Source: Tubiluchus corallicola (taxonomy: Eukaryota > Animalia > Priapulida). Taken from it: DNA of 18,756 nt. The position numbers were made by a program, and so were the translations under genes. The stretch is from NCBI GenBank assembly GCA_030141605.1, contig JAQGDQ010001981.1:1-18756 (forward strand), given 5' to 3'. The notes under the pieces are model-generated. The model saw only the letters and a list, made by a program, of their open reading frames with translations. It ran no database searches and was not told the DNA's origin. Numbering within the stretch: the first letter of the stretch is position 1; the number at the start of each line of letters is the position of its first letter. Shown here one piece after another: positions 1-18,756 of the stretch.

Positions 1-618
1 CGCCAAGTGAAAGAAACATTCAAGCCAACCAGTTGCACTTGATGTTATGACAAGTTTTTTTGCCAAACACAAGAACAGTTGGCTTGATGAAATGCACAAA
101 TTTCCTTTGTGCAAAATGCAATAAAGCAGAGCTAAGACTACGAAAACTATCATCTGCAGCAAACGCAAACCACTAAAATTGCTGAATTTTACAAACCGAC
201 GTGTGGAATATGATAGAATCTGTGAAAGTCTGTCTTAAATTTTACGAATTTTCTGAATAAGCTCATCGCCTCTGGGTTTTTGGAGCATCCAATCTTCTTT
301 GATGATAATCACTAGTGACACAATTTAAACCGTGACGAATCAAACACCAGTTGAACTTAATACTGGAAAAGCAAATTATTATGGAATTTTGCTTACAAGC
401 TTATCTCTCTTTAAACGTAATATCTATGGGCTTAAGAATGAACAAAGTGCTGAATTCAAGTAACACAATACGAATGGTATTTGTTGAATAACCTACTGAT
501 GAAACTTTGGTTTAAACCTGCTGATTTTAGTTTAAATTTGACGAAAATAGTTTTAAGAAAATAGGTAAACTTTTAAGGCAAAAAGTTTGTTTGTTTCTTA
601 ATAGATTGCTTTTCAGTA

Positions 619-989
619 ATCATCATCATCATCATCATCATAACATCATCGTCATCATTGTCATTATCGTCACCATCTTCATCATAACATCATCATCATC
701 ATTATCATCGTCATCATCTTCATCATAACATCATCATCATCATCATCGTCGTCATCATCATCATCGTCCTCGACGTCGTCGTCATCGTCGTCGTCATCAT
801 CATCATCATCATTGTCGTCGTCATCAACGTTATCATCGTCATTATCTTCATCATCGTCATCATCATCATCGTCATCAACGTCATTATCGTCGTCATCGTC
901 ATCATCATCACCACCACCATCATCATCATCATCGTCTTCATCATCTTCATCATAACATCATCATTGTCGTCGTCATTATTGTCATTATC

Positions 990-1036
<47 letters not shown>
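619..1036. repeat. Imperfect (CAT/CGT)n trinucleotide microsatellite
   Basis: About 420 bp of catcatcat/cgtcgt repeats; explains the spurious poly-D/M ORF 723..1052. Confidence 0.95.
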
Positions 1037-1718
1037 TAGGTTTCGGTATCACTTTCGATATCTTATTTCCAAGCTAAACATTCTATAAACCTGAAATTTA
1101 ATTTTCCAAGCATTTCTTCCATTTCTAGTGTATTAAATGTATGCCTAGCTGATCAACAAGTCAGTGTAGTCACTATAGATTCATTGTACACAATTCTCAT
1201 AAATGATATAGTTCTTACATTTTTAATTCTCCTTTCAAAAACAATAAGCTCCCACTTCTTGAAAATCCCAGTATGAATAACAGAACACTAAATTTAAGAT
1301 ACCTATATGCAACGAGGATTGTATTTCTCTGTATATATGTATATATATATAATAATCTTTATTATAATAATTATTATAATAAAAATACATCGATAATCAC
1401 TGATAAAAACTTTACAGAGATGATCAATCAGTGAAAATATGTGAAAAAGGCAGTAAGTAGGAGGTATACAATTTTAAGACAAATGTTTAAGTAAGTGGGG
1501 GATTTTCTTGTGCTTTAATGTGTTGTAACTTCTTCAGTTATGCAGAATTCGGGACGGCTTCTTCTGCACATATGAGACGTGCAGAACAAGAAAGAACAAC
1601 AAAAATTACATTCAAACTCGGCCAACAGACGAATTTTGCATCGAATTTTATTGGGTCATAAACTCCCCTCAAGAAATTGTCAATTTTAAGTTATTATTAT
1701 CATAGTTACAACAATTAA

Positions 1719-2103
1719 TACGATGGACCGGAAATAGGCCTAAAAATTATTACGATGGACCGGAAATAGGCCTAAAAACTATTACGATGGACTGGAAATA
1801 GGCCTAAAAACTATTACGACGGACCGGAATTAGTCCTTAAAAACTATTACAATGGACCACAAATAGGCCTAACAACTATTACAATGGACCGCAAATAGGC
1901 CTAAAAACTATTACAATGGACCGGAAATAGGCCTAAAAACTATTACGACGGACCGGAATTAGTCCTAAAAACTATTACAATGGACCACAAATAGGCCTAA
2001 CAACTATTACAATGGACCGCAAATAGGCCTAAAAACTGTTACAATGGACAGCAAATAGGCCTAAAAACTATTATGATGGACCGCAAATGGGCCTAAAAAG
2101 TAT
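1719..2103. repeat. 32-bp minisatellite, 12 units (TACRATGGACCGSAAATAGGCCTAAAAACTAT)
   Basis: Twelve tandem units counted by eye; variant units 4-6 recur as units 8-10. Confidence 0.93.
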
Positions 2104-2177
2104 TCTAACAACAAAATGTAGCACACTGTTCAACAACATTAATTATTTTAACAATTGCATTATCGCTAAACCATATA

Positions 2178-2226
2178 CTCGAATCTTATATATAAATATA
2201 TATACCAAGAATATTAACATAATAGA
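2178..2226 (-). mobile_element. Helitron 5'-terminal fragment (third unit of the tandem)
   Basis: Minus strand reads TCTATTATGTTAATATTCTTGG...AAGATTCGAG directly after the CTAG end of the preceding unit. Confidence 0.7.
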
Positions 2227-3082
2227 CTAGCAAAGGCCCCGCAAAAGATTTTGCGTATAAATACACGTGTAATTAATAATACGCGAACATCCTACCTAGT
2301 CCTCATTTATAACACAAAGCCCGTAACATCCTGCCTACTTACCTAACGCAAAGACTGTAGCAGCGTTTACTCCTGTCTACTGTATGTTTAACTAACGCAA
2401 AGCAGCTTTTTGCTGAATTAAAGCTATAAACAATAATGGATGACGTCACTACGATGCCTTTGCGCCAGCAGTTTTCTTAGGCGGAAATTGTCGAAAATAG
2501 AACACGTAATTAACTCGTTAATACTCCTCTCGGTGGACCTGCCCTAAAATATAACCCACATCATCGTGTAGCACTGTTCTTCTTCTTTCAAAGAGCTATA
2601 TATCCCTTCTGAGAGTCCCACCGGGCGCCGCTAGAACGTTTTTCCCGCAGGCTGTTTGGTCAAAATTTCGAAAAAATCGCGAGTTGGGTCCGGGAAAACG
2701 CCCGTTGCGGGGCGCCGTGGCCCTCTCGTAAATTCTAAATATGCCTACTACACCCACCGCTGAACGGGCTAGCTATCCATACCCAGCACCACCCTCGGCC
2801 CATTCCAGTTCTTCAGAAATAAGAGGTATAAGTTTTGCAAAAAACGGCCGAAAAATGGCCATTTTTGGAGGTTTTTCGCCCCCCCCTTCCTCCCAGTGGG
2901 CCCGATTCGAAAAATAAACCATCAATGGCACGACACTAGATCGAGACCTTTCGTTTGATGTATAGATCGCCGCAAATGCTGCCCTCGTCCGGGCTGTAGC
3001 CTCGAATCTTATATATATATATATAAATAAATAAACAAATATATATATATATATAACATACCAAGAATATTAATATAATAGA
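2227..3082 (-). mobile_element. Non-autonomous Helitron, ~855 bp, both termini intact
   Basis: Minus strand: 5' TCTATTATATTAATATTCTTGG; 3' hairpin CGCAAAA-TC-TTTTGCG, 9 nt, then CTAG. No TIRs, no TSD. Confidence 0.82.
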
Positions 3083-3367
3083 CTAGCAAAGGCCCCGCAA
3101 AAGATTTTGCGTATAAATACACGTGTAATCAATAATACGCGAACGTCCTACCAAGTTCTCATTTATAACACAAAGCCCGTAACATGCTGCCTACTGTATG
3201 TTTATCTAACACAAAACAGCTTTTAGTACAGCAGGCAGCGTTTACTGAATTAAAGTTATAAGCAGAGTACAATGGATGACGTCAGCACAATGGAATGCGT
3301 CACCACAGTTTTCTAAGCGAAAATATAAATAAATATATTAAGATACCAAGAATATTAATATAAGAGA
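3083..3367 (-). mobile_element. Internally deleted Helitron, 285 bp, both termini intact
   Basis: Minus strand: a|TCTCTTATATTAATATTCTTGG ... CGCAAAATCTTTTGCGGGGCCTTTGCTAG. Preceded by A, as expected for A|T target sites. Confidence 0.8.
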
Positions 3368-3744
3368 TGAATGTGAATTAGCAATAAATTAAAAAGTATA
3401 CTTTTCTAAATCACACAAGTCTGCTTATTTGCAAAAGTTACAAAGATTCCTTCAAACTCAGCTGCTTCATTTTCTCACGAGGAAGTTGGTTCACAAAGTT
3501 ATTTGAATGTTTTCTCTCTGAAAACATTCTATCATATCCACTTCTGTTTGAGTGAGGCTAGTCCAAGTCTCACTGTTATTGGTTATAGATGGAACAACTG
3601 TATTTTCGTATAACACTAAACGTACTGCTGTTACAGAATAGCAAACTTTTGTTTTACTATAAAATAGCCAACACCTCAGTTATTATAAATTTTATTTTCT
3701 CTTCCTTTTGTCAAACATCAGATGATAATTGCTTTCAGTGTTAA

Positions 3745-4201
3745 CCCTTTCATACCCGTTGTATCCCGTGGGATATGAGAATATTTTCTGCCTTTAAAAT
3801 TAATAAAATTTTAAAACTGACAGTTATTTGATCTGTTAATAGTTATTTTGATTTAAGCCAATAACAATAGACTAAAAATGGTGATAAAATGGCAAACTAG
3901 AAAATCTACATAGCATAAAAAACTGCGCAAGGTACAGTACTTTAGAGACGACATTGTACAGATCAGCATAGCGTGCATACTAAATGTCTTAAATACTTTA
4001 AAAAATTTTCAGCAGTTGCAAAATGAAGCACATTTTATGCTTCCATTGAATCTCAATGTATCCCGTGGAATACAGACTATATTTAGCATGCGGGCACAGA
4101 TAGAAAAAAATAATTATTATGTGTAAACAAGATGGACATACTGAACAAAAGTACCAAGCCAAAAAATTTTTTATTTAAAAAATAATTTGGGATTGAAAGG
4201 G
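3745..4201. mobile_element. piggyBac-type MITE, 457 bp
   Basis: TTAA on both sides (3741-3744, 4202-4205). TIRs CCCTTTCATACCC / GGGATTGAAAGGG match 11 of 13. Internal repeated quasi-palindrome TGTATCCCGTGG(G/A)ATA at ~3760 and ~4057. No transposase. Confidence 0.85.
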
Positions 4202-4582
4202 TTAAAGCACTCTTCCGGATATTTACATTCGTTGACACTTCTTTTTATTAGCAGACACTTGTTTTCAATAGACTATCAAAAGCAGTGCTTATTTAATGAC
4301 ACTCGCATGCTTATTGTCTGCTTTTGTCATTTTTATTTATCTTACCAGCACAAAAAACACGAGCTACAACAAGGAACTATAACGGCAGCAGACAAATATT
4401 GACCGATTTCTTTCAGTTTATGACAGAGTTCGTATAGAGTCACACAGAACAGTTGCCCGAGACAAAGAAGAAATATTTATTTACTACTGTTGAAAGAGCA
4501 TAATATTAATTAGCAGATAGCCTGTGTGAAAGGCCTTTAAGCTTAGCATTTGCAGTTGAAACAAAAGCAAAATATAGTGACA

Positions 4583-4698
4583 AAGGTTTTCAGTGCTTAT
4601 CACGATCACAAGTAACTGAGAGCCGGAGAGAAATGATTTCCAAACAGGCGCTGCTGTTTCTTGTTTGTATCTTTGCTCTTCAGCATAACAAAGCATAA
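4583..4698 (+). pseudogene. Degenerate tandem duplicate of the IR gene 5' end; upstream ORF MISKQALLFLVCIFALQHNKA* (4633-4698)
   Basis: 4583-4683 aligns with 4713-4813 at a 130-bp offset (tttcagtg..gatcacaa..gaga.atgatttcca.acag...gctgtttcttgtttg.atc). The peptide resembles the IR start MISRQIQLFLVCIITFQ and is out of frame with the main ORF. Confidence 0.8.
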
Positions 4699-4762
4699 TG
4701 TAATGACATTTGAAGGGTTTCAGTGGTGTTCATGATCACAAATAATACAGAACCGCAGAGAT

Positions 4763-6169
4763 ATGATTTCCAGACAGATACAGCTGTTTCTTGTTTGCAT
4801 CATTACTTTTCAGTTTCTGGACATATTTTGCATCAGTGAGTGCAAAATCAAACTGGACAAAAAGCGAAAAATCATTCCGATTAAGCACCTCAGAAACCAA
4901 AAGACCGGCATTCAAAAAGAATATGTGGCGTTTTACGAAAACAAACAGGATGCACAGGACTACTCCCTTAAAGGTGCTCAACTTGCAGTGGGGATTTGGG
5001 ACGGCGATCCCACTGCACATTTTACAATTGATGTGGTAAAGTTACTGAGTAATGCATTAAACTTCAGCTTTAACATAAAGACCATAGAAGCTTTAGAAAG
5101 TGCTGAAATGGTGGCTGAAAAGGCTGAGGTGGACATATTTGGACCGGTGACATTACTCAGAGAAAGAATGAAATACATGACTTTTCTACATCCTCTCGCA
5201 TATTCGTCACATGTGTTCGTTACAAAGAGGAATAAATTACAGGGATTTAACTTAACAGATCCCTTCAGCACCCCGGTTTGGTTACTTCTGATAATATTCG
5301 GGCTCTTGGCTGGGCCAATATTATACTGTTTCGATTGTCAAACAAAGACGATATGCAATGAAAATGATTTCAGGCAAATAAGCAGCAGGCCTACTAAAAC
5401 AGGCATAAAATACTACATTCAATATACCCTAGCCTCATTTCTGCAGCAAGGTGGAACTTACTTACCCCAGCGTTTGGCAGCTCGGATTTTTACCGGATGC
5501 TGGTGGCTGTTTGTTATTATTTTAATTGCCATGTACACAGGAACATTGGTCAGTAAGCTGTTTGTAAGCCACCAACACCATGTATTCTCAACTTTACAAG
5601 AATTAGTAGACAGCAACATTGTTCCTGTAACTATTGGAGACTTTGCTGCTACTTCTATCTTAAAAAACAGCCCACCTGATACAGATTATAGCAAGCTGTG
5701 GAAGAAAATGGAAATTGACAAGAATGTACCTGTGGATGATGTAGCAACAGCATTAGATCTTACGGCTACAGGAAGGTATACACACTTTCGCAATGGAATC
5801 TACGCAAAGTTAGACATTGTCCATGATTTCAAATTACATCGAAAATGTAGATTTTCTATAGCACCAGTCACCACTTTACCACTACAAATGTCCTTTGCAG
5901 TACCAAGAGAAAGTAATTTCACAGAAGCATTGAACCACGGCATTGCTACATTACTGCAAAGTGATATGATAGCAGGGAAACTGGAGAATATGCTACATCT
6001 GTCACAACAGTGTTTGGACACACCCATTCAAACTGTAGAAGCAGAAGCAATTCCTGTAGAACAGCTTAGTGCTGTGTTCTGGGTAATTCTTTTTGGAATG
6101 AGCATAGCACTTTTTACTTTCATAATAGAATCACTTTATTATCGAGTAAAGCATTACACAAATCCGTAG
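4763..6169 (+). CDS. Ionotropic receptor, iGluR superfamily (divergent IR-like, intronless ORF, 468 aa), copy 1
   Basis: Hydrophobic N-terminal signal peptide; S1-like IDVVKLLSNALNFSFNI and DIFGPVTLLRERMKYMTF; M1 PFSTPVWLLLII; pore-loop LASFLQQGG; M3 RIFTGCWWLFVIILIAMYTGTLVSKL (equivalent of SYTANLAAF); S2 FSTLQELV...C...FAVPRES...LN; M4 LSAVFWVILFGMSIALFTFIIE. No amino-terminal domain. Confidence 0.93.
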   Translation: MISRQIQLFLVCIITFQFLDIFCISECKIKLDKKRKIIPIKHLRNQKTGIQKEYVAFYENKQDAQDYSLKGAQLAVGIWDGDPTAHFTIDVVKLLSNALNFSFNIKTIEALESAEMVAEKAEVDIFGPVTLLRERMKYMTFLHPLAYSSHVFVTKRNKLQGFNLTDPFSTPVWLLLIIFGLLAGPILYCFDCQTKTICNENDFRQISSRPTKTGIKYYIQYTLASFLQQGGTYLPQRLAARIFTGCWWLFVIILIAMYTGTLVSKLFVSHQHHVFSTLQELVDSNIVPVTIGDFAATSILKNSPPDTDYSKLWKKMEIDKNVPVDDVATALDLTATGRYTHFRNGIYAKLDIVHDFKLHRKCRFSIAPVTTLPLQMSFAVPRESNFTEALNHGIATLLQSDMIAGKLENMLHLSQQCLDTPIQTVEAEAIPVEQLSAVFWVILFGMSIALFTFIIESLYYRVKHYTNP

Positions 6170-6180
6170 TTTAAGTTATA

Positions 6181-6186
6181 AATAAA
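6181..6186 (+). promoter_or_regulatory. Candidate polyadenylation signal AATAAA for IR copy 1 (mirror 12568-12573, minus strand)
   Basis: AATAAA starts 12 nt after the TAG stop. The context is AT-rich, so a chance match is possible. Confidence 0.35.
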
Positions 6187-6696
6187 CTGAATAGTAAGTT
6201 TCACCTTCCTATTTAATTGGCATGGTGAATGTGAGATGCAAGGAGAATTGAGCCTTATTCTACCATATGTGCTTCTAGCTCAATGTGGTTAGGGCTTTTT
6301 ACTTTGTGTTATTTTGCTATTATTTCTAATCATCGGGCTATTTAAGTCGTTATGAGTTATTACTGTTTTAGCTTGACAAAGATACGAACCAGTTGTATAG
6401 ACATGATAGCACCTATCTACTCTGTGCAACGATAGATTATAACAAGTAGTCTATTTCAACACTTATGTGTCTATTTTATTGTGGTTAAAATATATATAAT
6501 AATGTGCTACATAATCATCCTTTTGCATTTTGTTTTTGTCTGTGTTTAGTTGAATATCAGTATGTTCTCTAACTAAAGCATTCATCAAAAAAACTTAAGT
6601 TATGTTAATCCTATAATGAATCTATGCAAAATGCCACCTTGTATTCCACGAGACATTTAGTTAGTTCCCGTGCTCCATAGCAAGACTGGGATGCAC

Positions 6697-7694
6697 CTAG
6701 ACAAAAGATTTTGCGTATAAATACACGTGTAATCAATAATACGCGAACATCTTACATAGTCCTCAAAAATACGCGAACATCCTGCCTACTTACCTAACGC
6801 AAAGCCTGTAGCAGCTTTTTGCTGAATTAAAGCTATAAGATTATAGACAGAGTACAATGGATGACGTCAGAACAATGCCTTTGCGTCAGCAGTTTTCTAA
6901 GCGAAAATTGCCGAAAATAGAACATGTAATTAACTCGCCAGTACTCCTCTCGGTGGACCTGTCCTAAAATGTAGCTCACATCATCGTATATCCCCGTTCT
7001 GCCTCTTTCTAAAGAGCCCCACATCGTCTTCCGAGAGTCCCACCAGGCGCCGCTAGAACGTTTTTCCCGCAGGATGTTTTGTCAAAATTTCGAAAAAATC
7101 GCGAGTTGGGTCCGGGAAAACGCCCGTTACGGGACGCCGTGGCCCTCTCGCGAATTCTAAATAGGCCTATGACACCCATCGCTGAGCGGGCTATCTATCC
7201 ATACCCAGCACCAACGTCGACCCGTTCCCGTTCTCCACATCTATAACTTTTGCAAAAAACGTCCGAAAAATGGCCATTTCGGAGGTTTTTCGCCCCCCTT
7301 CCTCCCGGTGGGCGCGATTCGAAAAATAAACCATCAATGAGACGACACTAGATCGAGACCTTTCGTTTGATGTATAGATCGCCGCAAATGGTGCCCTCAT
7401 CGAAGCTGTAGCCTCGAATCTTATATATCTTTCTTTCTCACCATCCTCCTGGTAGATTTTCATCTGTCAGCCGCGCCATGAGTTACTTGAGCAAAAAATA
7501 CTTCAGTGACTTGCTAGGTCTATCCTGAAGGATTTGGTCCACAGCTCCTTATTTGAATATTCGGAGCACCCTGGCTCGTGAGCCAGGGGTCCCCCATCCG
7601 CCACCCGGGGGATGCGCCCGGTAGGGGTTTACTCCCACCCGAGGAATCTTATATATATATAAATAAATATATATACCAAGAAATAATAATAGGA
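6697..7694 (-). mobile_element. Non-autonomous Helitron with damaged 3' end and nested RTE-derived insertion; forms the inner edge of the left arm
   Basis: Homologous to 2227-3082 along its length. Minus-strand 5' end is degenerate (TCCTATTATTATTTCTTGG). The 3' end reads CGCAAAATCTTTTG-TCTAG and lacks CGGGGCCTTTG. Confidence 0.78.
7429..7643 (-). mobile_element. 215-bp RTE-LINE-derived non-autonomous retroelement with 13-bp TSD
   Basis: Flanked by the direct repeat GAATCTTATATAT (7416-7428, 7644-7656). Absent from the other Helitron copies, which have a single site. Mirror of 11127-11341. Confidence 0.7.
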
Positions 7695-7837
7695 CATATT
7701 TGCTGCTACACATAGTTGGATTTATGTATGTTTGTGTATAATTCTGTGGATAGATGGCACTGCATTGGAGGATTATAGAATTTACGTATGTTAGTACATA
7801 ATTCCGTGGATAGATGGCACAGCTGTGGAGTAATGTA

Positions 7838-7973
7838 GGTAAAAATGACACAAAAATGGCACAGGAAAAAATGAAAAAGTGGGTAAAAATGGTATAAGAA
7901 AAAACGACGCGGTAGGAATAACACAGGAAAAAATGGCACAGGTAAAAAGGGCACAGGAAAAAAATGCCACACC
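7838..7973. repeat. Degenerate 15-bp tandem (GGAAAAAATGGCACA), possibly a solo tandem-repeat TIR of a Mutator/Phantom/Foldback-like transposon
   Basis: About 9 imperfect units; the minus strand begins GGTGTGGCATTTTTTTCCTGTGCC. No partner TIR in the window, so the family call is inference. Confidence 0.5.
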
Positions 7974-8730
7974 TTTAATGGCGTTAATAACCCTTGCTTA
8001 TTAATGTGCATAGCCTTACAAGGTGACTTGGTATGTGTGTATTTGTCAATCTATTTTTCAACAAACAATTAGACAAACGAACAAACAAAGGAACTAGTCG
8101 ATGTACCATTTGTTCGGCAAGTCTGCAAGCTGCCAGGCTTGCAATCATTAATTACACAGATAAAATGTGTCTCACTGGCAAGTTCTACATTTGTTCATGA
8201 TCCTACACATAAAGATCTCCACCACTGCCTCACAATATTACTGCAAATCAAATGACAAAGTTTGTAATTTAAATATTAAAGACTTTCATGAATACTTTAA
8301 ATAAGATTTTTTTACTGTTAGTTGCTTCATCCAACCAGCATTGCAAAACAAGAAGCTACTACCAGTATTTTATATAGTAGGATTATTTATTGAATTTAGC
8401 AACAAGTGTAAAGTTCCTTGCAGAAACATTCCTGTAAAAATTCACTAAATTTGAACAGGCAACTCAGAGAGTGACAAGCATGCCACTGGTACAGCAGCAT
8501 GGATTATTCAAGTGCTGCTATAGCCAGTGGTACATAACTGAATCTAAAACAAAATAATCAGTAGAGAAACTACTCAACTGCTTTCATTTGCATTCTTCTC
8601 ACAGATTCAGTGAAGTTTACATTCAGTGTAATTATGATAAATAAATAAACTCGAAACTTGCATAGCTGTGAAATGAGTAGTCTTGGCAATCCATGTACAT
8701 GAAACGAATAAAAAGATAATAACGTTATCC

Positions 8731-9268
8731 CATGCACACTTCATTGTTACAAGCTGTTGGCCGTGCACACGTCATTGTTACAAGCTGTTGTCCATGTACA
8801 CTTCATTGTTACAAGCTGTTGTCCATGTACACTTCATTGTTGCAAGCTGTTGTCCATGTACACTTCATTGTTACAAGCTGTTGTCCATGTACACTTCATT
8901 GTTACAAGCTGTTGTTCATGTACACTTCATTGTTGCAAGCAATTGTTCATGTACACTTCATTGTTACAAGTTGTTGTCCATGTACACTTCATTGTTACAA
9001 GCGGTTGTTCATGTACACTTCATTGTTACAAGCTGTTGTTCATGTACACTTCATTGTTACAAGCTGTTGGTCGTGTACACTTCATTGTTACAAGCTGTTG
9101 TTCATGTACACTTCATTGTTACAAGCTGTTGGCCGTGTACACTTCATTGTTACAAGCAATTGTTCATGTACACTTCATTGTTATAAGCTGTTGTCCATGT
9201 ACACTTCATTGTTACAAGCAATTGTTCATGTACACTTCATTGTTACAAGCTGTTGTCCATGTACACTT
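8731..9268. repeat. 31-bp minisatellite, ~17 units (CATGTACACTTCATTGTTACAAGCTGTTGTY)
   Basis: Clear tandem array. The unit has no plus-strand stop codons and its length is not a multiple of 3, which produces three spurious overlapping ORFs. Confidence 0.95.
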
Positions 9269-9547
9269 ACTGCATTCAAGCCTTCCATGAGAATTAGTCT
9301 ACACTTAAGTGTCAACAGCAATAAATCAAAATATCGTTTTAAAGTCTTACTTTACAAGCACATCGTCTCCAAGCTTGCACTTTTTGACAAGATCACCGTG
9401 TAAAGTCACCCCACATGGTTTTCAGCACAGATCCCATGTCCAGCTTTCGCACCTGTTCTTGAACCTTTATTTCCTGCTAATCACGATGACTAAAAATTAT
9501 ATTATAAAAATCAATATTTATTATTATATATAAACTAATAATATAAC

Positions 9548-10052
9548 TCTTATATTAATATTCTTGGTATATATATTTATTTATTTATATATATATAAGA
9601 TTCGAGACTACAGCCCGGATGAGGGCACCATCTGCGGCCGAGGGTGGTGCTGGGTATGGATAGATAGCCCGTTCAGTGGTGGGTGTCATAGGCATATTTA
9701 GAATTGCCGAGAGGGCCACGGCGTCCCGCAACAGGCGTTTTCCCGGACCCAACTCGCGATTTTTTTTCGAAATTTTGACCAAACAGCCTGCGGAAAAAAC
9801 GTTCTAGCGGCGCCTGGTGGGACTCTCGGAAGGAGATATATAGCTCTTTACAAAGAGGAAGAACAGGGCTACACGATGATGCGGGTTATATTTTAGGGCA
9901 GGTCCACCGAGAGGAGTATCAACGAGTTAATTACGTGTTATATTTTCGACAATTTTCGCTTAGAAAACTGCTGACGCAAAGGCATTGTTCTGACGTCATC
10001 CATTATTGCTTATAACTTTAATTCAGCAAAATGCTGCCTGCTGGCTTTGCGT
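9548..10052 (+). mobile_element. Helitron copy, 5' end present, internally deleted, 3'-truncated
   Basis: Starts TCTTATATTAATATTCTTGG...AAGATTCGAG and is homologous to 15672-16526, with about 170 bp missing at gcggc|cgaggg (~9638). Homology ends at ctttgcgt, before the hairpin and CTAG. Confidence 0.78.
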
Positions 10053-10633
10053 CGAGAGCGAGAGAGAAAATAAAATAAGTTTGCATTAAGTATAATATTT
10101 TGAAAACCAGCAATAGTATGTCTTCCCTTTAATTTTGATTTTAAATGCGTAATACTAAATCTATCTACAGTCGTTTTTCTCAACTCATTTGCTTACTTGT
10201 TAAGCACTACTTATTGTTTGTTAATTATTATCATTTTTCGCAGTTACTATTTTTTTCTTGTTTTTCCGATCTTGTTCTTTATAAAATAAATTTATTTGAG
10301 GTTCATCGCACAAAATCAAAGCCGTACTGCATTTTGGCTCATCCACAATATTATTAAAGTACAAATTATATAACTTGTGTATGAGTTCTCAGCTTACAGC
10401 ATATAGAGGCAAATAATGGCTAATACGTTCAAAACGATATTATTTGATTGAATATTAATCACTAAACAGTTAAAACTAAGTTTTATTTGACATATGCAAT
10501 GTGTATATTATTGTTATGAAGGAAACAAAAATAAAAATATTGTGTTTGAATTTATGTTTAAAATTAAATTTTAATAATTAGGGGAAAGTTGATCATAGTG
10601 CAAAATCAGAATTTTCTTTCGGATAAATTTTGT

Positions 10634-10649
10634 GGCCCTGAAAAGGGCC
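10634..10649 (-). promoter_or_regulatory. Replication-dependent histone mRNA 3' stem-loop, with downstream purine-rich element at ~10612-10620
   Basis: Minus strand: CCAACC-GGCCCT-TTTC-AGGGCC-ACAAAA, 34 nt after the H2B stop codon, followed 13 nt later by GAAAGAAAA. Confidence 0.93.
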
Positions 10650-10683
10650 GGTTGGTTATTTTATGCATCCGTAGATGAGCTCT

Positions 10684-10785
<102 letters not shown>

Positions 10786-11073
10786 TCATTGTGAGTTACA
10801 GAAATTGTAAACAGTTTTTCCACATCTACAATTGTTCCCTCTGGTTGGGCGCCGTCTTTGTGGAAAGTATGGTCGTTGTCTGTGTCTGTTTCTGTGTTGT
10901 TGATTTTGTTGATGTATATTTTGATGTATTTGCTGGTAGTGGTTTTGCTGTTCTTCTAATTGTTGCTGTTGCTGTTGTTGTTGTTGTTGTTGTTGTGGTT
11001 GTTGTTGTTGTTGTTGGTGTTGTTGTTGTTGTTGTGGCTGTTGTTCTTGTGGCTCTTGATGCTGTTGTTCTTG
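10786..11073 (-). other. Start-less poly-Q open frame (95 codons + TGA) over a (CAA)n repeat; probable gene fragment
   Basis: QEQQHQEPQEQQPQ...QLEEQQNHYQQIHQNIHQQNQQHRNRHRQRPYFPQRRRPTRGNNCRCGKTVYNFCNSQ*. Cut off upstream by the Helitron 5' end at 11074. Confidence 0.5.
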
Positions 11074-12057
11074 TCTATTTATTAATATTCTTGGTATATA
11101 TATTTATTTATATATATATAAGATTCCTCGGGTGGGAGTAAACCCCTACCGGGCGCATCCCCCGGGTGGCGGATGGGGGACCCCTGGCTCACGAGCCAGG
11201 GTGCTCCGAATATTCAAATAAGGAGCTGTGGACCAAATCCTTCAGGATAGACCTAGCAAGTCACTGAAGTATTTTTTGCTCAAGTAACTCATGGCGCGGC
11301 TGACAGATGAAAATCTACCAGGAGGATGGTGAGAAAGAAAGATATATAAGATTCGAGGCTACAGCTTCGATGAGGGCACCATTTGCGGCGATCTATACAT
11401 CAAACGAAAGGTCTCGATCTAGTGTCGTCTCATTGATGGTTTATTTTTCGAATCGCGCCCACCGGGAGGAAGGGGGGCGAAAAACCTCCGAAATGGCCAT
11501 TTTTCGGACGTTTTTTGCAAAAGTTATAGATGTGGAGAACGGGAACGGGTCGACGTTGGTGCTGGGTATGGATAGATAGCCCGCTCAGCGATGGGTGTCA
11601 TAGGCCTATTTAGAATTCGCGAGAGGGCCACGGCGTCCCGTAACGGGCGTTTTCCCGGACCCAACTCCCGATTTTTTCGAAATTTTGGAGAAACGTTCTA
11701 GCGGCGCCTGGTGGGACTCTCGGAAGACGATGTGGGGCTCTTTAGAAAGAGGCAGAACGGGGATATACGATGATGTGAGCTACATTTTAGGACAGGTCCA
11801 CCGAGAGGAGTACTGGCGAGTTAATTACATGTTCTATTTTCGGCAATTTTCGCTTAGAAAACTGCTGACGCAAAGGCATTGTTCTGACGTCATCCATTGT
11901 ACTCTGTCTATAATCTTATAGCTTTAATTCAGCAAAAAGCTGCTACAGGCTTTGCGTTAGGTAAGTAGGCAGGATGTTCGCGTATTTTTGAGGACTATGT
12001 AAGATGTTCGCGTATTATTGATTACACGTGTATTTATACGCAAAATCTTTTGTCTAG
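11074..12057 (+). mobile_element. Non-autonomous Helitron with damaged 3' end and nested RTE-derived insertion; forms the inner edge of the right arm
   Basis: 5' TCTATTTATTAATATTCTTGG; 3' CGCAAAATCTTTTG-TCTAG (12039-12057). Carries a 16-bp deletion near 11687 relative to the left copy. Confidence 0.78.
11127..11341 (+). mobile_element. 215-bp RTE-LINE-derived non-autonomous retroelement with 13-bp TSD
   Basis: TSD ATATATAAGATTC at 11114-11126 and 11342-11354; short (GAAA)-type 3' tail. GCAAGTCACTGAAGTATTTTTTGCTCAAGTAACTCATG resembles, from memory, the RTE/BovB 5'-UTR motif GGCAAACCACTTCAGTATTCTTGCC...AACCCCATG. GC-rich hairpins in the 5' half. Confidence 0.7.
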
Positions 12058-12584
12058 GTGCATCCCAGTCTTGCTATGGAGCACGGGAACTAACTAAATG
12101 TCTCGTGGAATACAAGGTGGCATTTTGCATAGATTCATTATAGGATTAACATAACTTAAGTTTTTTTGATGAATGCTTTAGTTAGAGAACATACTGATAT
12201 TCAACTAAACACAGACAAAAACAAAATGCAAAAGGATGATTATGTAGCACATTATTATATATATTTTAACCACAATAAAATAGACACATAAGTGTTGAAA
12301 TAGACTACTTGTTATAATCTATCGTTGCACAGAGTAGATAGGTGCTATCATGTCTATACAACTGGTTCGTATCTTTGTCAAGCTAAAACAGTAATAACTC
12401 ATAACGACTTAAATAGCCCGATGATTAGAAATAATAGCAAAATAACACAAAGTAAAAAGCCCTAACCACATTGAGCTAGAAGCACATATGGTAGAATAAG
12501 GCTCAATTCTCCTTGCATCTCACATTCACCATGCCAATTAAATAGGAAGGTGAAACTTACTATTCAGTTTATTTATAACTTAAA

Positions 12585-13991
12585 CTACGGATTTGTGTAA
12601 TGCTTTACTCGATAATAAAGTGATTCTATTATGAAAGTAAAAAGTGCTATGCTCATTCCAAAAAGAATTACCCAGAACACAGCACTAAGCTGTTCTACAG
12701 GAATTGCTTCTGCTTCTACAGTTTGAATGGGTGTGTCCAAACACTGTTGTGACAGATGTAGCATATTCTCCAGTTTCCCTGCTATCATATCACTTTGCAG
12801 TAATGTAGCAATGCCGTGGTTCAATGCTTCTGTGAAATTACTTTCTCTTGGTACTGCAAAGGACATTTGTAGTGGTAAAGTGGTGACTGGTGCTATAGAA
12901 AATCTACATTTTCGATGTAATTTGAAATCATGGACAATGTCTAACTTTGCGTAGATTCCATTGCGAAAGTGTGTATACCTTCCTGTAGCCGTAAGATCTA
13001 ATGCTGTTGCTACATCATCCACAGGTACATTCTTGTCAATTTCCATTTTCTTCCACAGCTTGCTATAATCTGTATCAGGTGGGCTGTTTTTTAAGATAGA
13101 AGTAGCAGCAAAGTCTCCAATAGTTACAGGAACAATGTTGCTGTCTACTAATTCTTGTAAAGTTGAGAATACATGGTGTTGGTGGCTTACAAACAGCTTA
13201 CTGACCAATGTTCCTGTGTACATGGCAATTAAAATAATAACAAACAGCCACCAGCATCCGGTAAAAATCCGAGCTGCCAAACGCTGGGGTAAGTAAGTTC
13301 CACCTTGCTGCAGAAATGAGGCTAGGGTATATTGAATGTAGTATTTTATGCCTGTTTTAGTAGGCCTGCTGCTTATTTGCCTGAAATCATTTTCATTGCA
13401 TATCGTCTTTGTTTGACAATCGAAACAGTATAATATTGGCCCAGCCAAGAGCCCGAATATTATCAGAAGTAACCAAACCGGGGTGCTGAAGGGATCTGTT
13501 AAGTTAAATCCCTGTAATTTATTCCTCTTTGTAACGAACACATGTGACGAATATGCGAGAGGATGTAGAAAAGTCATGTATTTCATTCTTTCTCTGAGTA
13601 ATGTCACCGGTCCAAATATGTCCACCTCAGCCTTTTCAGCCACCATTTCAGCACTTTCTAAAGCTTCTATGGTCTTTATGTTAAAGCTGAAGTTTAATGC
13701 ATTACTCAGTAACTTTACCACATCAATTGTAAAATGTGCAGTGGGATCGCCGTCCCAAATCCCCACTGCAAGTTGAGCACCTTTAAGGGAGTAGTCCTGT
13801 GCATCCTGTTTGTTTTCGTAAAACGCCACATATTCTTTTTGAATGCCGGTCTTTTGGTTTCTGAGGTGCTTAATCGGAATGATTTTTCGCTTTTTGTCCA
13901 GTTTGATTTTGCACTCACTGATGCAAAATATGTCCAGAAACTGAAAAGTAATGATGCAAACAAGAAACAGCTGTATCTGTCTGGAAATCAT
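12585..13991 (-). CDS. Ionotropic receptor, iGluR superfamily (divergent IR-like, 468 aa), copy 2
   Basis: Translation in the ORF track is identical to copy 1; mirror position in the right arm. Confidence 0.93.
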   Translation of the reverse strand: MISRQIQLFLVCIITFQFLDIFCISECKIKLDKKRKIIPIKHLRNQKTGIQKEYVAFYENKQDAQDYSLKGAQLAVGIWDGDPTAHFTIDVVKLLSNALNFSFNIKTIEALESAEMVAEKAEVDIFGPVTLLRERMKYMTFLHPLAYSSHVFVTKRNKLQGFNLTDPFSTPVWLLLIIFGLLAGPILYCFDCQTKTICNENDFRQISSRPTKTGIKYYIQYTLASFLQQGGTYLPQRLAARIFTGCWWLFVIILIAMYTGTLVSKLFVSHQHHVFSTLQELVDSNIVPVTIGDFAATSILKNSPPDTDYSKLWKKMEIDKNVPVDDVATALDLTATGRYTHFRNGIYAKLDIVHDFKLHRKCRFSIAPVTTLPLQMSFAVPRESNFTEALNHGIATLLQSDMIAGKLENMLHLSQQCLDTPIQTVEAEAIPVEQLSAVFWVILFGMSIALFTFIIESLYYRVKHYTNP

Positions 13992-14055
13992 ATCTCTGCG
14001 GTTCTGTATTATTTGTGATCATGAACACCACTGAAACCCTTCAAATGTCATTACA

Positions 14056-14171
14056 TTATGCTTTGTTATGCTGAAGAGCAAAGATACAAACAAGAAACAG
14101 CAGCGCCTGTTTGGAAATCATTTCTCTCCGGCTCTCAGTTACTTGTGATCGTGATAAGCACTGAAAACCTT
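14056..14171 (-). pseudogene. Mirror copy of the duplicated IR 5' end / signal-peptide upstream ORF
   Basis: Reverse complement of 4583-4698. Confidence 0.8.
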
Positions 14172-14552
14172 TGTCACTATATTTTGCTTTTGTTTCAACT
14201 GCAAATGCTAAGCTTAAAGGCCTTTCACACAGGCTATCTGCTAATTAATATTATGCTCTTTCAACAGTAGTAAATAAATATTTCTTCTTTGTCTCGGGCA
14301 ACTGTTCTGTGTGACTCTATACGAACTCTGTCATAAACTGAAAGAAATCGGTCAATATTTGTCTGCTGCCGTTATAGTTCCTTGTTGTAGCTCGTGTTTT
14401 TTGTGCTGGTAAGATAAATAAAAATGACAAAAGCAGACAATAAGCATGCGAGTGTCATTAAATAAGCACTGCTTTTGATAGTCTATTGAAAACAAGTGTC
14501 TGCTAATAAAAAGAAGTGTCAACGAATGTAAATATCCGGAAGAGTGCTTTAA

Positions 14553-15009
14553 CCCTTTCAATCCCAAATTATTTTTTAAATAAAAAATTTTTTGGCTTGG
14601 TACTTTTGTTCAGTATGTCCATCTTGTTTACACATAATAATTATTTTTTTCTATCTGTGCCCGCATGCTAAATATAGTCTGTATTCCACGGGATACATTG
14701 AGATTCAATGGAAGCATAAAATGTGCTTCATTTTGCAACTGCTGAAAATTTTTTAAAGTATTTAAGACATTTAGTATGCACGCTATGCTGATCTGTACAA
14801 TGTCGTCTCTAAAGTACTGTACCTTGCGCAGTTTTTTATGCTATGTAGATTTTCTAGTTTGCCATTTTATCACCATTTTTAGTCTATTGTTATTGGCTTA
14901 AATCAAAATAACTATTAACAGATCAAATAACTGTCAGTTTTAAAATTTTATTAATTTTAAAGGCAGAAAATATTCTCATATCCCACGGGATACAACGGGT
15001 ATGAAAGGG
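14553..15009. mobile_element. piggyBac-type MITE, mirror copy
   Basis: ttaa|CCCTTTCA ... TGAAAGGG|ttaa; reverse complement of 3745-4201. Confidence 0.85.
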
Positions 15010-15386
15010 TTAACACTGAAAGCAATTATCATCTGATGTTTGACAAAAGGAAGAGAAAATAAAATTTATAATAACTGAGGTGTTGGCTATTTTATAGTAA
15101 AACAAAAGTTTGCTATTCTGTAACAGCAGTACGTTTAGTGTTATACGAAAATACAGTTGTTCCATCTATAACCAATAACAGTGAGACTTGGACTAGCCTC
15201 ACTCAAACAGAAGTGGATATGATAGAATGTTTTCAGAGAGAAAACATTCAAATAACTTTGTGAACCAACTTCCTCGTGAGAAAATGAAGCAGCTGAGTTT
15301 GAAGGAATCTTTGTAACTTTTGCAAATAAGCAGACTTGTGTGATTTAGAAAAGTATACTTTTTAATTTATTGCTAATTCACATTCA

Positions 15387-15671
15387 TCTCTTATATTAAT
15401 ATTCTTGGTATCTTAATATATTTATTTATATTTTCGCTTAGAAAACTGTGGTGACGCATTCCATTGTGCTGACGTCATCCATTGTACTCTGCTTATAACT
15501 TTAATTCAGTAAACGCTGCCTGCTGTACTAAAAGCTGTTTTGTGTTAGATAAACATACAGTAGGCAGCATGTTACGGGCTTTGTGTTATAAATGAGAACT
15601 TGGTAGGACGTTCGCGTATTATTGATTACACGTGTATTTATACGCAAAATCTTTTGCGGGGCCTTTGCTAG
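15387..15671 (+). mobile_element. Internally deleted Helitron, 285 bp
   Basis: a|TCTCTTATATT ... CGCAAAATCTTTTGCGGGGCCTTTGCTAG; mirror of 3083-3367. Confidence 0.8.
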
Positions 15672-16526
15672 TCTATTATATTAATATTCTTGGTATGTTA
15701 TATATATATATATATTTGTTTATTTATTTATATATATATATATAAGATTCGAGGCTACAGCCCGGACGAGGGCAGCATTTGCGGCGATCTATACATCAAA
15801 CGAAAGGTCTCGATCTAGTGTCGTGCCATTGATGGTTTATTTTTCGAATCGGGCCCACTGGGAGGAAGGGGGGGGCGAAAAACCTCCAAAAATGGCCATT
15901 TTTCGGCCGTTTTTGTAAAACTTATACCTCTTATTTCTGAAGAACTGGAATGGGCCGAGGGTGGTGCTGGGTATGGATAGCTAGCCCGTTCAGCGGTGGG
16001 TGTAGTAGGCATATTTAGAATTTACGAGAGGGCCACGGCGCCCCGCAACGGGCGTTTTCCCGGACCCAACTCGCGATTTTTTCGAAATTTTGACCAAACA
16101 GCCTGCGGGAAAAACGTTCTAGCGGCGCCCGGTGGGACTCTCAGAAGGGATATATAGCTCTTTGAAAGAAGAAGAACAGTGCTACACGATGATGTGGGTT
16201 ATATTTTAGGGCAGGTCCACCGAGAGGAGTATTAACGAGTTAATTACGTGTTCTATTTTCGACAATTTCCGCCTAAGAAAACTGCTGGCGCAAAGGCATC
16301 GTAGTGACGTCATCCATTATTGTTTATAGCTTTAATTCAGCAAAAAGCTGCTTTGCGTTAGTTAAACATACAGTAGACAGGAGTAAACGCTGCTACAGTC
16401 TTTGCGTTAGGTAAGTAGGCAGGATGTTACGGGCTTTGTGTTATAAATGAGGACTAGGTAGGATGTTCGCGTATTATTAATTACACGTGTATTTATACGC
16501 AAAATCTTTTGCGGGGCCTTTGCTAG
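15672..16526 (+). mobile_element. Non-autonomous Helitron, 855 bp, both termini intact
   Basis: TCTATTATATTAAT ... hairpin + CTAG; mirror of 2227-3082. Confidence 0.82.
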
Positions 16527-16575
16527 TCTATTATGTTAATATTCTTGGTATATATATTTATATATAAGATTCGAG
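16527..16575 (+). mobile_element. Helitron 5'-terminal fragment
   Basis: CTAG|TCTATTATGTTAATATTCTTGG...AAGATTCGAG, then unrelated sequence. Confidence 0.7.
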
Positions 16576-16649
16576 TATATGGTTTAGCGATAATGCAATT
16601 GTTAAAATAATTAATGTTGTTGAACAGTGTGCTACATTTTGTTGTTAGA

Positions 16650-17034
16650 ATACTTTTTAGGCCCATTTGCGGTCCATCATAATAGTTTTTAGGCCTATTT
16701 GCTGTCCATTGTAACAGTTTTTAGGCCTATTTGCGGTCCATTGTAATAGTTGTTAGGCCTATTTGTGGTCCATTGTAATAGTTTTTAGGACTAATTCCGG
16801 TCCGTCGTAATAGTTTTTAGGCCTATTTCCGGTCCATTGTAATAGTTTTTAGGCCTATTTGCGGTCCATTGTAATAGTTGTTAGGCCTATTTGTGGTCCA
16901 TTGTAATAGTTTTTAAGGACTAATTCCGGTCCGTCGTAATAGTTTTTAGGCCTATTTCCAGTCCATCGTAATAGTTTTTAGGCCTATTTCCGGTCCATCG
17001 TAATAATTTTTAGGCCTATTTCCGGTCCATCGTA
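16650..17034. repeat. 32-bp minisatellite, mirror copy
   Basis: Reverse complement of 1719-2103. Confidence 0.93.
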
Positions 17035-17718
17035 TTAATTGTTGTAACTATGATAATAATAACTTAAAATTGACAATTTCTTGAGGGGAGTTTATGACCC
17101 AATAAAATTCGATGCAAAATTCGTCTGTTGGCCGAGTTTGAATGTAATTTTTGTTGTTCTTTCTTGTTCTGCACGTCTCATATGTGCAGAAGAAGCCGTC
17201 CCGAATTCTGCATAACTGAAGAAGTTACAACACATTAAAGCACAAGAAAATCCCCCACTTACTTAAACATTTGTCTTAAAATTGTATACCTCCTACTTAC
17301 TGCCTTTTTCACATATTTTCACTGATTGATCATCTCTGTAAAGTTTTTATCAGTGATTATCGATGTATTTTTATTATAATAATTATTATAATAAAGATTA
17401 TTATATATATATACATATATACAGAGAAATACAATCCTCGTTGCATATAGGTATCTTAAATTTAGTGTTCTGTTATTCATACTGGGATTTTCAAGAAGTG
17501 GGAGCTTATTGTTTTTGAAAGGAGAATTAAAAATGTAAGAACTATATCATTTATGAGAATTGTGTACAATGAATCTATAGTGACTACACTGACTTGTTAA
17601 TCAGCTAGGCATATACATTTAATGCACTAGAAATGGAAGAAATGCTTGGAAAATTAAATTTCAGGTTTATAGAATGTTTAGCTTGGAAATAAGATATCGA
17701 AAGTGATACCGAAACCTA

Positions 17719-17765
<47 letters not shown>

Positions 17766-18136
17766 GATAATGACAATAATGACGACGACAATGATGATGT
17801 TATGATGAAGATGATGAAGACGATGATGATGATGATGGTGGTGGTGATGATGATGACGATGACGACGATAATGACGTTGATGACGATGATGATGATGACG
17901 ATGATGAAGATAATGACGATGATAACGTTGATGACGACGACAATGATGATGATGATGATGACGACGACGATGACGACGACGTCGAGGACGATGATGATGA
18001 TGACGACGATGATGATGATGATGATGTTATGATGAAGATGATGACGATGATAATGATGATGATGATGTTATGATGAAGATGGTGACGATAATGACAATGA
18101 TGACGATGATGTTATGATGATGATGATGATGATGAT
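17719..18136. repeat. Imperfect (ATG/ACG)n microsatellite, mirror copy
   Basis: Reverse complement of 619-1036, same length. Confidence 0.95.
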
Positions 18137-18756
18137 TACTGAAAAGAAATCTATTAAGAAACAAACAAACTTTTTGCCTTAAAAGTTTACCTATTTTCTC
18201 AAAACCATTTTCGTTGAATTTAACCTAAAATCAGCAGGTTTAAACCAATAAGTTTCACCAGTAGGCTATTCAACATATACGATTCATATCGTGTTACTTG
18301 AATTCACGACTTTGTCCATTCTTAAGCCCATAGATATTAGGTTTAAAAAGAGATAAGCTTGTAAGCAAAATTCCATAATAACTTGCTTTTTCAGTATTAA
18401 GTTCAACTGGTGTTTGATTCGTCACGGTTTAAATTGTGCCACTAGTGATTATCAACAAAGAAGATTGGATGCTCCAAAAACCCAGAGGCGATGAGCTTAT
18501 TCAGAAAATTCGTAAAATTTAATACAGGATTTCGCAGATTCTACCATATTCCAAACGTCGGTTTGTAAAATTCAGCAGTTTTAGTGGTTTGCGTTTGCTG
18601 CAGATGATAGTTTTCGTAGTCTTAGCTCTGCTTTATTGCATTTTGCACAAAGGAAATTTGTGCATTTCATCAAGCCAACTGTTCTTGTGTTTGGCAAAAA
18701 AACTTGTCATAACATCAAGTGCAACTGGTTGGCTTGAATGTTTCTTTCACTTGGCG

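What the first reader, a model, noticed from the sequence alone, without database searches (positions are those of the whole stretch)
11074..16526. Candidate Helitron transduction of a complete chemoreceptor gene
Seen, reading outward along the right arm: Helitron 5' TC end (11074), Helitron body, broken 3' terminator (12039-12057; hairpin shortened, CGGGGCCTTTG missing), whole IR gene in antisense with its upstream region, then intact hairpin-plus-CTAG ends at 15671 and 16526. All Helitron parts point the same way. Known: Helitrons capture downstream DNA by bypassing a weak 3' terminator and stopping at a later one. Inference: the IR gene sits in a mobilisable 4.6-5.5 kb composite Helitron, a possible route for spreading intronless receptor genes. 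Caveat: the duplicated arm continues at least 2.2 kb past 16526, so those terminators would also have been bypassed.
Basis: partly seen in the sequence, partly recalled or inferred. Interest (0 to 1): 0.8.

Follow-up and report, generated by a model that had tools for sequence, protein, structure and literature searches.

The report
Receptor gene wedged between Helitron transposons
An intact, intron-free gene for a likely chemosensory (ionotropic-type) receptor sits between copies of an abundant rolling-circle-type transposon, but its one visible second copy ignores the transposon ends, so it was likely multiplied by ordinary duplication or fold-back rather than carried by the transposon.

Summary
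Public contigs show an abundant family with diverse 3' flanks. Transduction is not shown. The downstream ends belong to separate stacked copies; H2 has its own A|TC start (15387). H1 is decayed: G before TC, a nested insertion with a 13-bp duplication. The only second copy in hand, the mirror arm, stops 14 bp inside H1's TC and runs 2.2 kb past 16526. The window is a palindrome with a 3,405-bp spacer whose first and last bases pair exactly; this fits a fold-back, real or artefactual. Another sample carries roughly 4-5 close paralogous loci sharing at least 12112-15226, nearly the whole inter-Helitron interval. Their outer ends are hidden in repeats, so composite transposition stays open (about 15%); recombination between co-oriented copies predicts the same block. 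The named relatives are Priapulus caudatus proteins. Also found: a piggyBac-like MITE and a histone H2B fragment. Interest modest.

The parts
1..7682 (-). Left arm of a window-wide inverted repeat: mirror copy of 11088-18756, with an identical receptor ORF at 4763-6169 (+)
   Evidence: BLAST 1-7696 vs 18756-11072, 99.25%; base 1 pairs with base 18756
7683..11087 (.). Single-copy spacer between the arms, 3,405 bp; on the right it includes the first 14 bp of H1
   Evidence: (I4)
9546..10052 (+). H0: Helitron-like copy, terminal T altered, 3' end missing
10053..10782 (-). Histone-repeat fragment: last 32 codons of H2B (10687-10782), stop, histone stem-loop (10608-10654) and downstream spacer
   Evidence: RF00032, E 1e-8; H2B, E 2e-12; X1 depth 6,000-8,000
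11074..12057 (+). H1: non-autonomous Helitron-like copy; G|TC start with a 1-bp deletion, damaged 3' end
11127..11341 (+). Nested 215-bp insertion in H1, flanked by a 13-bp target-site duplication (11114-11126, 11342-11354) and ending in a GAAA-rich tail; likely a short retro-element
   Evidence: itself repetitive (X3 record 17, depth 411)
12039..12057 (+). Damaged terminator of H1: 4-bp stem instead of 6, 11 nt replaced by one T, CTAG kept, followed by G
12585..13991 (-). Intact single-exon ORF, 468 aa: iGluR-family channel without amino-terminal domain (divergent-IR-like), in a clade whose named members are Priapulus caudatus proteins
14549..15013 (.). piggyBac-like MITE: TTAA on both sides, CCCTTTCA terminal inverted repeats, very high copy
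   Evidence: (depth 1.5 million in X1; 93 contigs leave at 15013 with unrelated flanks)
15387..15671 (+). H2: short, internally deleted Helitron-like copy with both ends intact, inserted after A (A|TC)
15672..16526 (+). H3: Helitron-like copy with both ends intact, head-to-tail after H2
16527..16575 (+). H4: 5' fragment of a further copy, head-to-tail after H3
16576..18756 (.). Rest of the duplicated arm beyond the Helitron ends: 32-bp minisatellite (16649-17034), ATG microsatellite (17719-18136)

Best explanation
An intact single-exon receptor gene lies in a repeat-dense patch where copies of an abundant non-autonomous Helitron-like family likely inserted independently on both sides, and the gene was likely multiplied by segmental duplication (recombination or template switching, possibly seeded at these repeats) rather than by transposase read-through. 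Steps: (1) H1 inserted downstream of the gene and decayed (shown: nested insertion, 1-bp loss at the 5' end, damaged hairpin; the order of events is inferred). (2) H4, H3 and H2 stacked upstream, each new copy likely using the A|T recreated at the previous copy's 5' junction (shown: A|TC at H2, CTAG|TC joints, 15% difference between H2 and H3; the order is inferred). (3) The gene block was duplicated several times (inferred from contig depths and variants in run X1); the co-oriented H1 and H3, 84% alike over 630 bp and 4.4 kb apart, are a ready substrate for unequal crossover. (4) The mirror copy in this window is likely a fold-back that primed at the AT-rich 5' end of H1, either in the animal or during amplification or assembly (about even odds).
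For: The mirror copy starts 14 bp inside H1's TC (identity ends at 7682/11088) and runs 2,230 bp past 16526 to the window's end; a transposase product should begin at TC and end at a CTAG. G, not A, precedes TC in both arms, whereas H2 has A|TC. H1 carries an insertion with a 13-bp duplication and differs from H3 by 12%. The spacer is 3,405 bp; human fold-back duplications have spacers of 766-70,466 bp, median 3,428 bp, with repeats or microhomology at the junction (PMC3907307, passages). Chromosomal Helraiser donors showed no local hopping (PMC4778049, passage). Base 1 pairs with base 18756; 29 of 37 arm differences fall in the outer 608 bp and none in a 4.2-kb stretch, which is not clock-like divergence. 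The family is abundant: X1 summed depth 0.26-1.2 million in Helitron bins, against 138-205 for single contigs. About half of the non-mirrored 11 kb is repeat (5,329 of 11,060 bp). X1 record 2 (1,381 bp, depth 205), a distant paralogue, has 844 letters before 12611 with no H1 piece listed. Tandem duplication by non-allelic recombination is the described route for single-exon IRs (PMC2924276, passages).
Against: Close paralogues in X1 share both flanks: depth 712 at 12112 with several indel variants, about 1,090 at 15044, and three sequence types at 15010-15226. The shared block thus fills nearly the whole H1-H2 interval, as a composite Helitron would predict. The inner breakpoint of the mirror falling within 15 bp of a Helitron 5' end is unlikely by chance (about 5 x 15 / 11,000, under 1%; my estimate). 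Five co-oriented copies in 7 kb would far exceed a uniform scatter of even a few thousand copies in a genome of some hundred Mb (size not known), so abundance alone does not explain the flanking. The similarity just beyond the two junctions is only borderline (14 of 300 random spacer 24-mers score as high). Record 2 is only about 85% alike, so it may predate H1, and table 8 was cut.
Confidence: 0.62

Rival explanations
1. Composite Helitron transposition: a RepHel in trans nicks H1's TC, bypasses the damaged hairpin, copies the receptor gene with 1.4 kb of upstream DNA, stops at H2 or H3, and inserts elsewhere. Some of the close paralogues arose this way.
For: The anatomy fits and all copies are co-oriented. 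The family has many intact ends with varied flanks. Close paralogues share at least 12112-15226. Hairpin deletion raised capture of a 1.6-kb cassette from about 11.7% to at least 36% of events (PMC4778049). [quoted passage not shown]
Against: No copy with these boundaries was seen; the one duplicate in hand has other boundaries. There is no A|T junction at H1, and its essential 5' end has a deletion. No RepHel partner was found (no host genome). At least one paralogue-like X1 contig enters at 15010 without a MITE piece while a 5%-diverged X3 copy runs into the MITE (record 5, record 15), which suggests staggered ages but does not tell the mechanism.
Confidence: 0.15
2. The mirror copy is an amplification or assembly artefact (fold-back chimera, or a collapsed repeat emitted twice), so the genome has one copy at this locus. 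This is compatible with the best explanation for everything else; the odds given are for this point alone.
For: Exact terminal symmetry (178 mirrored bases from both ends). No differences in the ORF, the 420-bp microsatellite or the 12-copy minisatellite. Both arms share letters that none of the X1 contigs laid there carries at several sites, e.g. 12259, 12285, 13270, 13345, 13372, 13380. Palindromic chimeras are common after whole-genome amplification and enter assemblies (PMC6218980, PMC13265396, passages).
Against: The arms are not identical: 17 transitions and 11 transversions in the outer 608 bp and a 16-bp indel in H1 look like real variants. The block is really multi-copy in another sample. 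How the library was made is unknown.
Confidence: 0.5
3. Helitron-initiated rearrangement: a RepHel nick at H1's 5' end started run-on copying or a break whose repair produced the adjacent inverted duplication of at least 7.7 kb.
For: The inner breakpoint lies within 15 bp of H1's TC in both arms, and the left junction also reads as a TC-led, AT-rich start.
Against: It needs bypass of two intact terminators. The first 14 bp differ between arms while the next 580 bp are identical, whereas transposition joins the 5' end precisely. A repeat edge is also where template switches and assembly joins occur.
Confidence: 0.08

Closest known systems
Non-autonomous Helitrons of the Helitron1/Helraiser type (PMC4778049, passages and section 12)
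   Same: 5' TC, 3' CTAG, a palindrome shortly before the end (16 nt ending 13 nt from the end here; 19 bp, 11 nt upstream in Helraiser), T after CTAG in most flanks, head-to-tail abutment of copies
   Different: No RepHel partner found; 0.3-1 kb, no coding capacity; mobility inferred from diverse flanks only
Composite (end-bypass) Helitron HelibatN539 and Helitron-amplified retrogenes of Myotis bats (PMC4224331, passages)
   Same: 5' end of one copy and 3' end of another enclosing host DNA
   Different: There the composite was identified as a transposed element; here no dispersed copy with those ends is seen, and the cargo would be a whole gene with its upstream region
Divergent ionotropic receptors (PMC2924276, passages)
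   Same: iGluR-type S1-channel-S2 layout, single exon, lineage-specific clade, recent paralogues
   Different: Shorter (460-500 aa); named relatives are Priapulus caudatus proteins annotated as glutamate-receptor-like; expression and ligand untested; no reference IR in my tree
Fold-back inverted duplications with a single-copy spacer (PMC3907307) and WGA palindromic chimeras (PMC6218980, PMC13265396), passages
   Same: Mirror arms, few-kb spacer, junction at a repeat edge
   Different: Here it cannot be told whether it is genomic; arm differences are clustered at the outer ends
TE enrichment around chemoreceptor clusters (SINEs near Spodoptera GR clusters, PMC9339325, passages)
   Same: Repeats beside expanding receptor genes, read as substrates for unequal crossover
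   Different: Different receptor family and TE class; enrichment could not be tested here

Membership tests
Helitron (non-autonomous) | 5' TC terminus | tested here: met
   H1-H4 start TC; H0 has an altered first base
Helitron (non-autonomous) | 3' CTRR preceded by a short hairpin | tested here: met
   H2 and H3; 56 X1 and 28 X3 contigs at 12052
Helitron (non-autonomous) | Insertion between A and T without target duplication | tested here: inconclusive
   A|TC at H2 and consensus T after CTAG; G|TC and CTAG|G at H1; no empty site seen
Helitron (non-autonomous) | Interspersed, many copies with unrelated flanks | tested here: met
   (flank agreement about 0.7; depth hundreds to thousands of times the single-contig level)
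Helitron (non-autonomous) | Autonomous RepHel element with the same termini | not testable with these tools
   No host genome; 3'-end pattern absent from metagenome contigs
Composite Helitron carrying the gene | Further copies bounded by the same TC and CTAG | tested here: not met
   For the one full second copy available: 14 bp short at the 5' end, 2.2 kb long at the 3' end
Composite Helitron carrying the gene | Paralogues share the interval between the two Helitrons | tested here: inconclusive
   Shared to at least 12112 and 15226; outer ends hidden in high-copy repeats; one distant paralogue without H1
Composite Helitron carrying the gene | A|T junction and empty sites | tested here: not met
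   G precedes TC; empty sites not testable
Divergent ionotropic receptor (IR) | iGluR ligand-binding and channel domains without amino-terminal domain | tested here: met
   residues 115-463 align to GluA2 461-810
Divergent ionotropic receptor (IR) | Single-exon gene in a lineage-specific clade | tested here: met
   Continuous ORF; 19-protein clade, FastTree support 1.0
Divergent ionotropic receptor (IR) | Phylogenetic placement with bona fide IRs | tested here: inconclusive
   Sister group is 5 short arthropod proteins (support 0.81), none named IR by its source; no reference IRs in the tree
Divergent ionotropic receptor (IR) | Expression in chemosensory cells with a co-receptor | not testable with these tools
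   No RNA holder listed
piggyBac-like MITE | TTAA duplication and CCC-led terminal inverted repeats | tested here: met

The most novel reading that the evidence does not exclude
A composite non-autonomous Helitron (5' end of H1, 3' end of H2 or H3) has transposed a complete, intact chemoreceptor gene with its upstream region and produced some of the 4-5 recent paralogues, a DNA-transposon route for chemoreceptor family expansion in a priapulid-like animal.
Probability: 0.15. Interest if true: 0.68.

Novelty: new member of a known kind. Interest (0 to 1): 0.27.

Why it matters
If the composite had really moved, it would add a third route, beside retroposition and unequal crossover, for spreading single-exon chemoreceptor genes, and one that keeps upstream DNA. 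My searches (listings and abstract starts only) showed no paper reporting that for IRs. As it stands, the locus is an ordinary case of a receptor family expanding in repeat-rich DNA, and a warning that palindromic contigs can fake gene duplicates. The side result, a clade of short IR-like receptors with named members only in Priapulus caudatus and very recent paralogues, is of modest interest for chemoreceptor evolution outside arthropods; searches listed no paper on it by title or abstract start.

Tried and rejected
No host genome is held, so genome-wide BLAST, enrichment tests and a RepHel search could not be run. Metagenome scans: 0 matches for the 3'-end pattern; 80 pattern hits, none a relative, for the protein alignment. 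No shorter homologues (0 of 483 candidates). The protein atlas gave no answer. The H1/flank junction of the paralogues was not among the loose ends shown (12 rows shown, 99 not). Joints such as 11471-15869 were rejected as evidence of recombination: they are explained by other subfamily copies. Depth at 10770-11014 as a test of co-amplification 5' of TC was rejected: spill-over from H2B, and inconsistent between runs (994, 39, 192, 0.6). The codon effect of 30 listed paralogue variants (13 synonymous, 17 not) comes from a biased subset of several hundred rows and was not used. The first tree run timed out; FastTree was used on 140 of 151 proteins (330-1,200 aa), 380 columns, midpoint root. Rolling-circle concatemer origin of H2-H3-H4 was rejected because the copies differ (15%). 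Earlier-finding look-ups gave nothing bearing on this. Supplements of the papers were not read; those of PMC4224331 (fig. S2) hold the evidence for HelibatN539.
Full report
Observation. H1 starts with TC at 11074. Its 3' end keeps the first 14 bases of the family hairpin (12039-12052), then one T and CTAG (12054-12057). Intact ends lie at 15643-15671 and 16498-16526. The motifs are far beyond chance (0 in 200 shuffles). The intact hairpin folds at -4.5 kcal/mol and H1's at -1.0. The antisense ORF at 12585-13991 encodes 468 aa with Pfam Lig_chan.

The repeat family. Contigs of four public runs from two samples were laid on 9300-16640, and two of them on 12010-14568. At 12052, 56 X1 and 28 X3 contigs leave the window and continue with the intact end, CTAG, mostly T, and varied flanks. 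Summed depth in Helitron bins is 0.26-1.2 million in X1, against 138-205 for single contigs. The tool warns that this is no copy number; it indicates hundreds to thousands of copies. No RepHel partner could be sought, so 'Helitron' rests on terminal structure.

H2 has its own 5' end, A|TC at 15386|15387, and H2, H3 and H4 abut as CTAG|TC. H2 and H3 differ by 15% and H1 and H3 by 12%, so they are separate insertions; abutting insertions are described in bats (PMC4778049, section 12). H1 is preceded by G, has lost one base in its 5' end, and carries a 215-bp insertion flanked by a 13-bp duplication. A piggyBac-like MITE with TTAA duplication sits 558 bp upstream of the ATG. About half of the non-mirrored 11 kb is repeat.

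The gene. It aligns with GluA2 from residue 115 on and has no amino-terminal domain. The ligand-binding arginine is kept (R135; 17 of 18 clade relatives) and the gating motif has diverged. A full HMMER scan found 16 proteins at E below 1e-30. With 18 proteins it forms one clade (support 1.0; 140 of 151 sequences used). Seven of the 18 carry a name, all Priapulus caudatus; 11 are unnamed. The sister group is five short arthropod proteins (support 0.81). Divergent-IR status is likely but not proven, and the host is likely a priapulid or relative (inference).

Paralogues. In X1, variant depths cluster near 80 and 160, and flank depth is 712 at 12112 and about 1,090 at 15044, which suggests roughly 4-5 close loci (rough). 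They share the gene and both flanks from at least 12112 to about 15226, nearly the whole interval between H1 and H2. It does not discriminate: unequal crossover between the co-oriented H1 and H3 (84% over 630 bp, longest exact match 49 bp) or a larger segmental duplication gives the same block, and short contigs break inside the high-copy repeats. One distant paralogue (X1 record 2, 1,381 bp, about 85% alike) has 844 letters before 12611 with no H1 piece listed, but it may predate H1. The window's own allele is absent from the X1 contigs at several sites, so X1 is likely not the individual behind the window.

The mirror. The window is one inverted repeat: 1-7696 against 11072-18756, 99.25%, spacer 3,405 bp, base 1 pairing with base 18756. 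This is the only full second copy in hand, and it does not obey Helitron ends: identity stops 14 bp inside H1's TC and continues 2,230 bp past 16526. Of 37 difference events, 29 lie in the outer 608 bp and none in a 4.2-kb stretch that includes the gene. The shape matches fold-back duplications, whose spacers have a median of 3,428 bp in human cases and whose junctions fall in repeats or microhomology (PMC3907307, passages). It also matches amplification chimeras (PMC6218980, PMC13265396, PMC9484634, passages). I could test neither junction and put artefact at about even odds. The breakpoint's closeness to H1's 5' end is unlikely by chance, but a repeat edge is where template switches and assembly joins are expected; similarity beyond the junctions is borderline (14 of 300).

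Mechanism and odds. Best: independent insertions around an old single-exon gene, with copies made by recombination or template switching (0.62). Composite transposition behind some paralogues: 0.15. The mechanism exists: read-through rose from about 11.7% to at least 36% after hairpin deletion, the 5' end was essential, and no local hopping was seen (PMC4778049, passages); a two-copy composite is known in bats (PMC4224331, passages). A RepHel-initiated inverted duplication: 0.08. The rest covers mixed or other routes. Single-exon IRs are described as spreading by non-allelic recombination after retroposition (PMC2924276, passages), and TE enrichment near chemoreceptor clusters is already reported (PMC9339325, passages).

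Verdict. Real anatomy, a known kind of element, mobilisation not shown. Searches (3 and 13 papers listed; listings and abstract starts only) showed no report of Helitron-carried IRs, so the hypothesis would be worth about 0.68 if long reads supported it. On present evidence the interest is 0.27.

Noticed in passing
window 10053-10782 (-): A histone H2B 3' fragment with its stem-loop and about 550 bp of downstream spacer directly follows the 3'-truncated Helitron copy H0. It includes DNA beyond the stem-loop, so it is a DNA-level fragment of a histone repeat (orphon, or possibly a Helitron-captured piece)..
   Followed up: partly
window 10783-11073 (-): Upstream of the H2B fragment and in the same frame, after one stop, is a Gln-rich stretch over a CAA microsatellite; it is not H2B. 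Origin unexplained.
   Followed up: no
window 14071-14194 vs 13941-14067 (mirror 4560-4683 vs 4687-4813): A 125-bp tandem duplicate (77%) of the receptor's start region gives a 21-codon upstream ORF resembling the signal peptide.
   Followed up: partly
window 11127-11341: The insertion in H1 looks like the 5' part and the 3' tail of a short retro-element joined at about 11296; other contigs diverge there. A resemblance to RTE-type LINE ends is recalled, not tested.
   Followed up: no
window ~15327-15381: Many contigs end their match at 15381 (43 in X1, 47 in X2, 32 in X4); a 14-bp palindrome lies just before. Possibly the end of another repeat family next to H2.
   Followed up: no
X1 record 3 (window 12943-13138, joint 13138-13603): A distant paralogue with a 464-bp deletion in the coding region, likely a pseudogene.
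   Followed up: no
window 13677-13897: In run X3 this 221-bp part of the ORF is identical to the window at depth 56, against about 6-12 for other single contigs, suggesting several near-identical copies in that sample.
   Followed up: no
window 8730-9268 and 7852-7963: A 31-bp minisatellite (17 copies) and a degenerate 15-bp repeat in the spacer.
   Followed up: no
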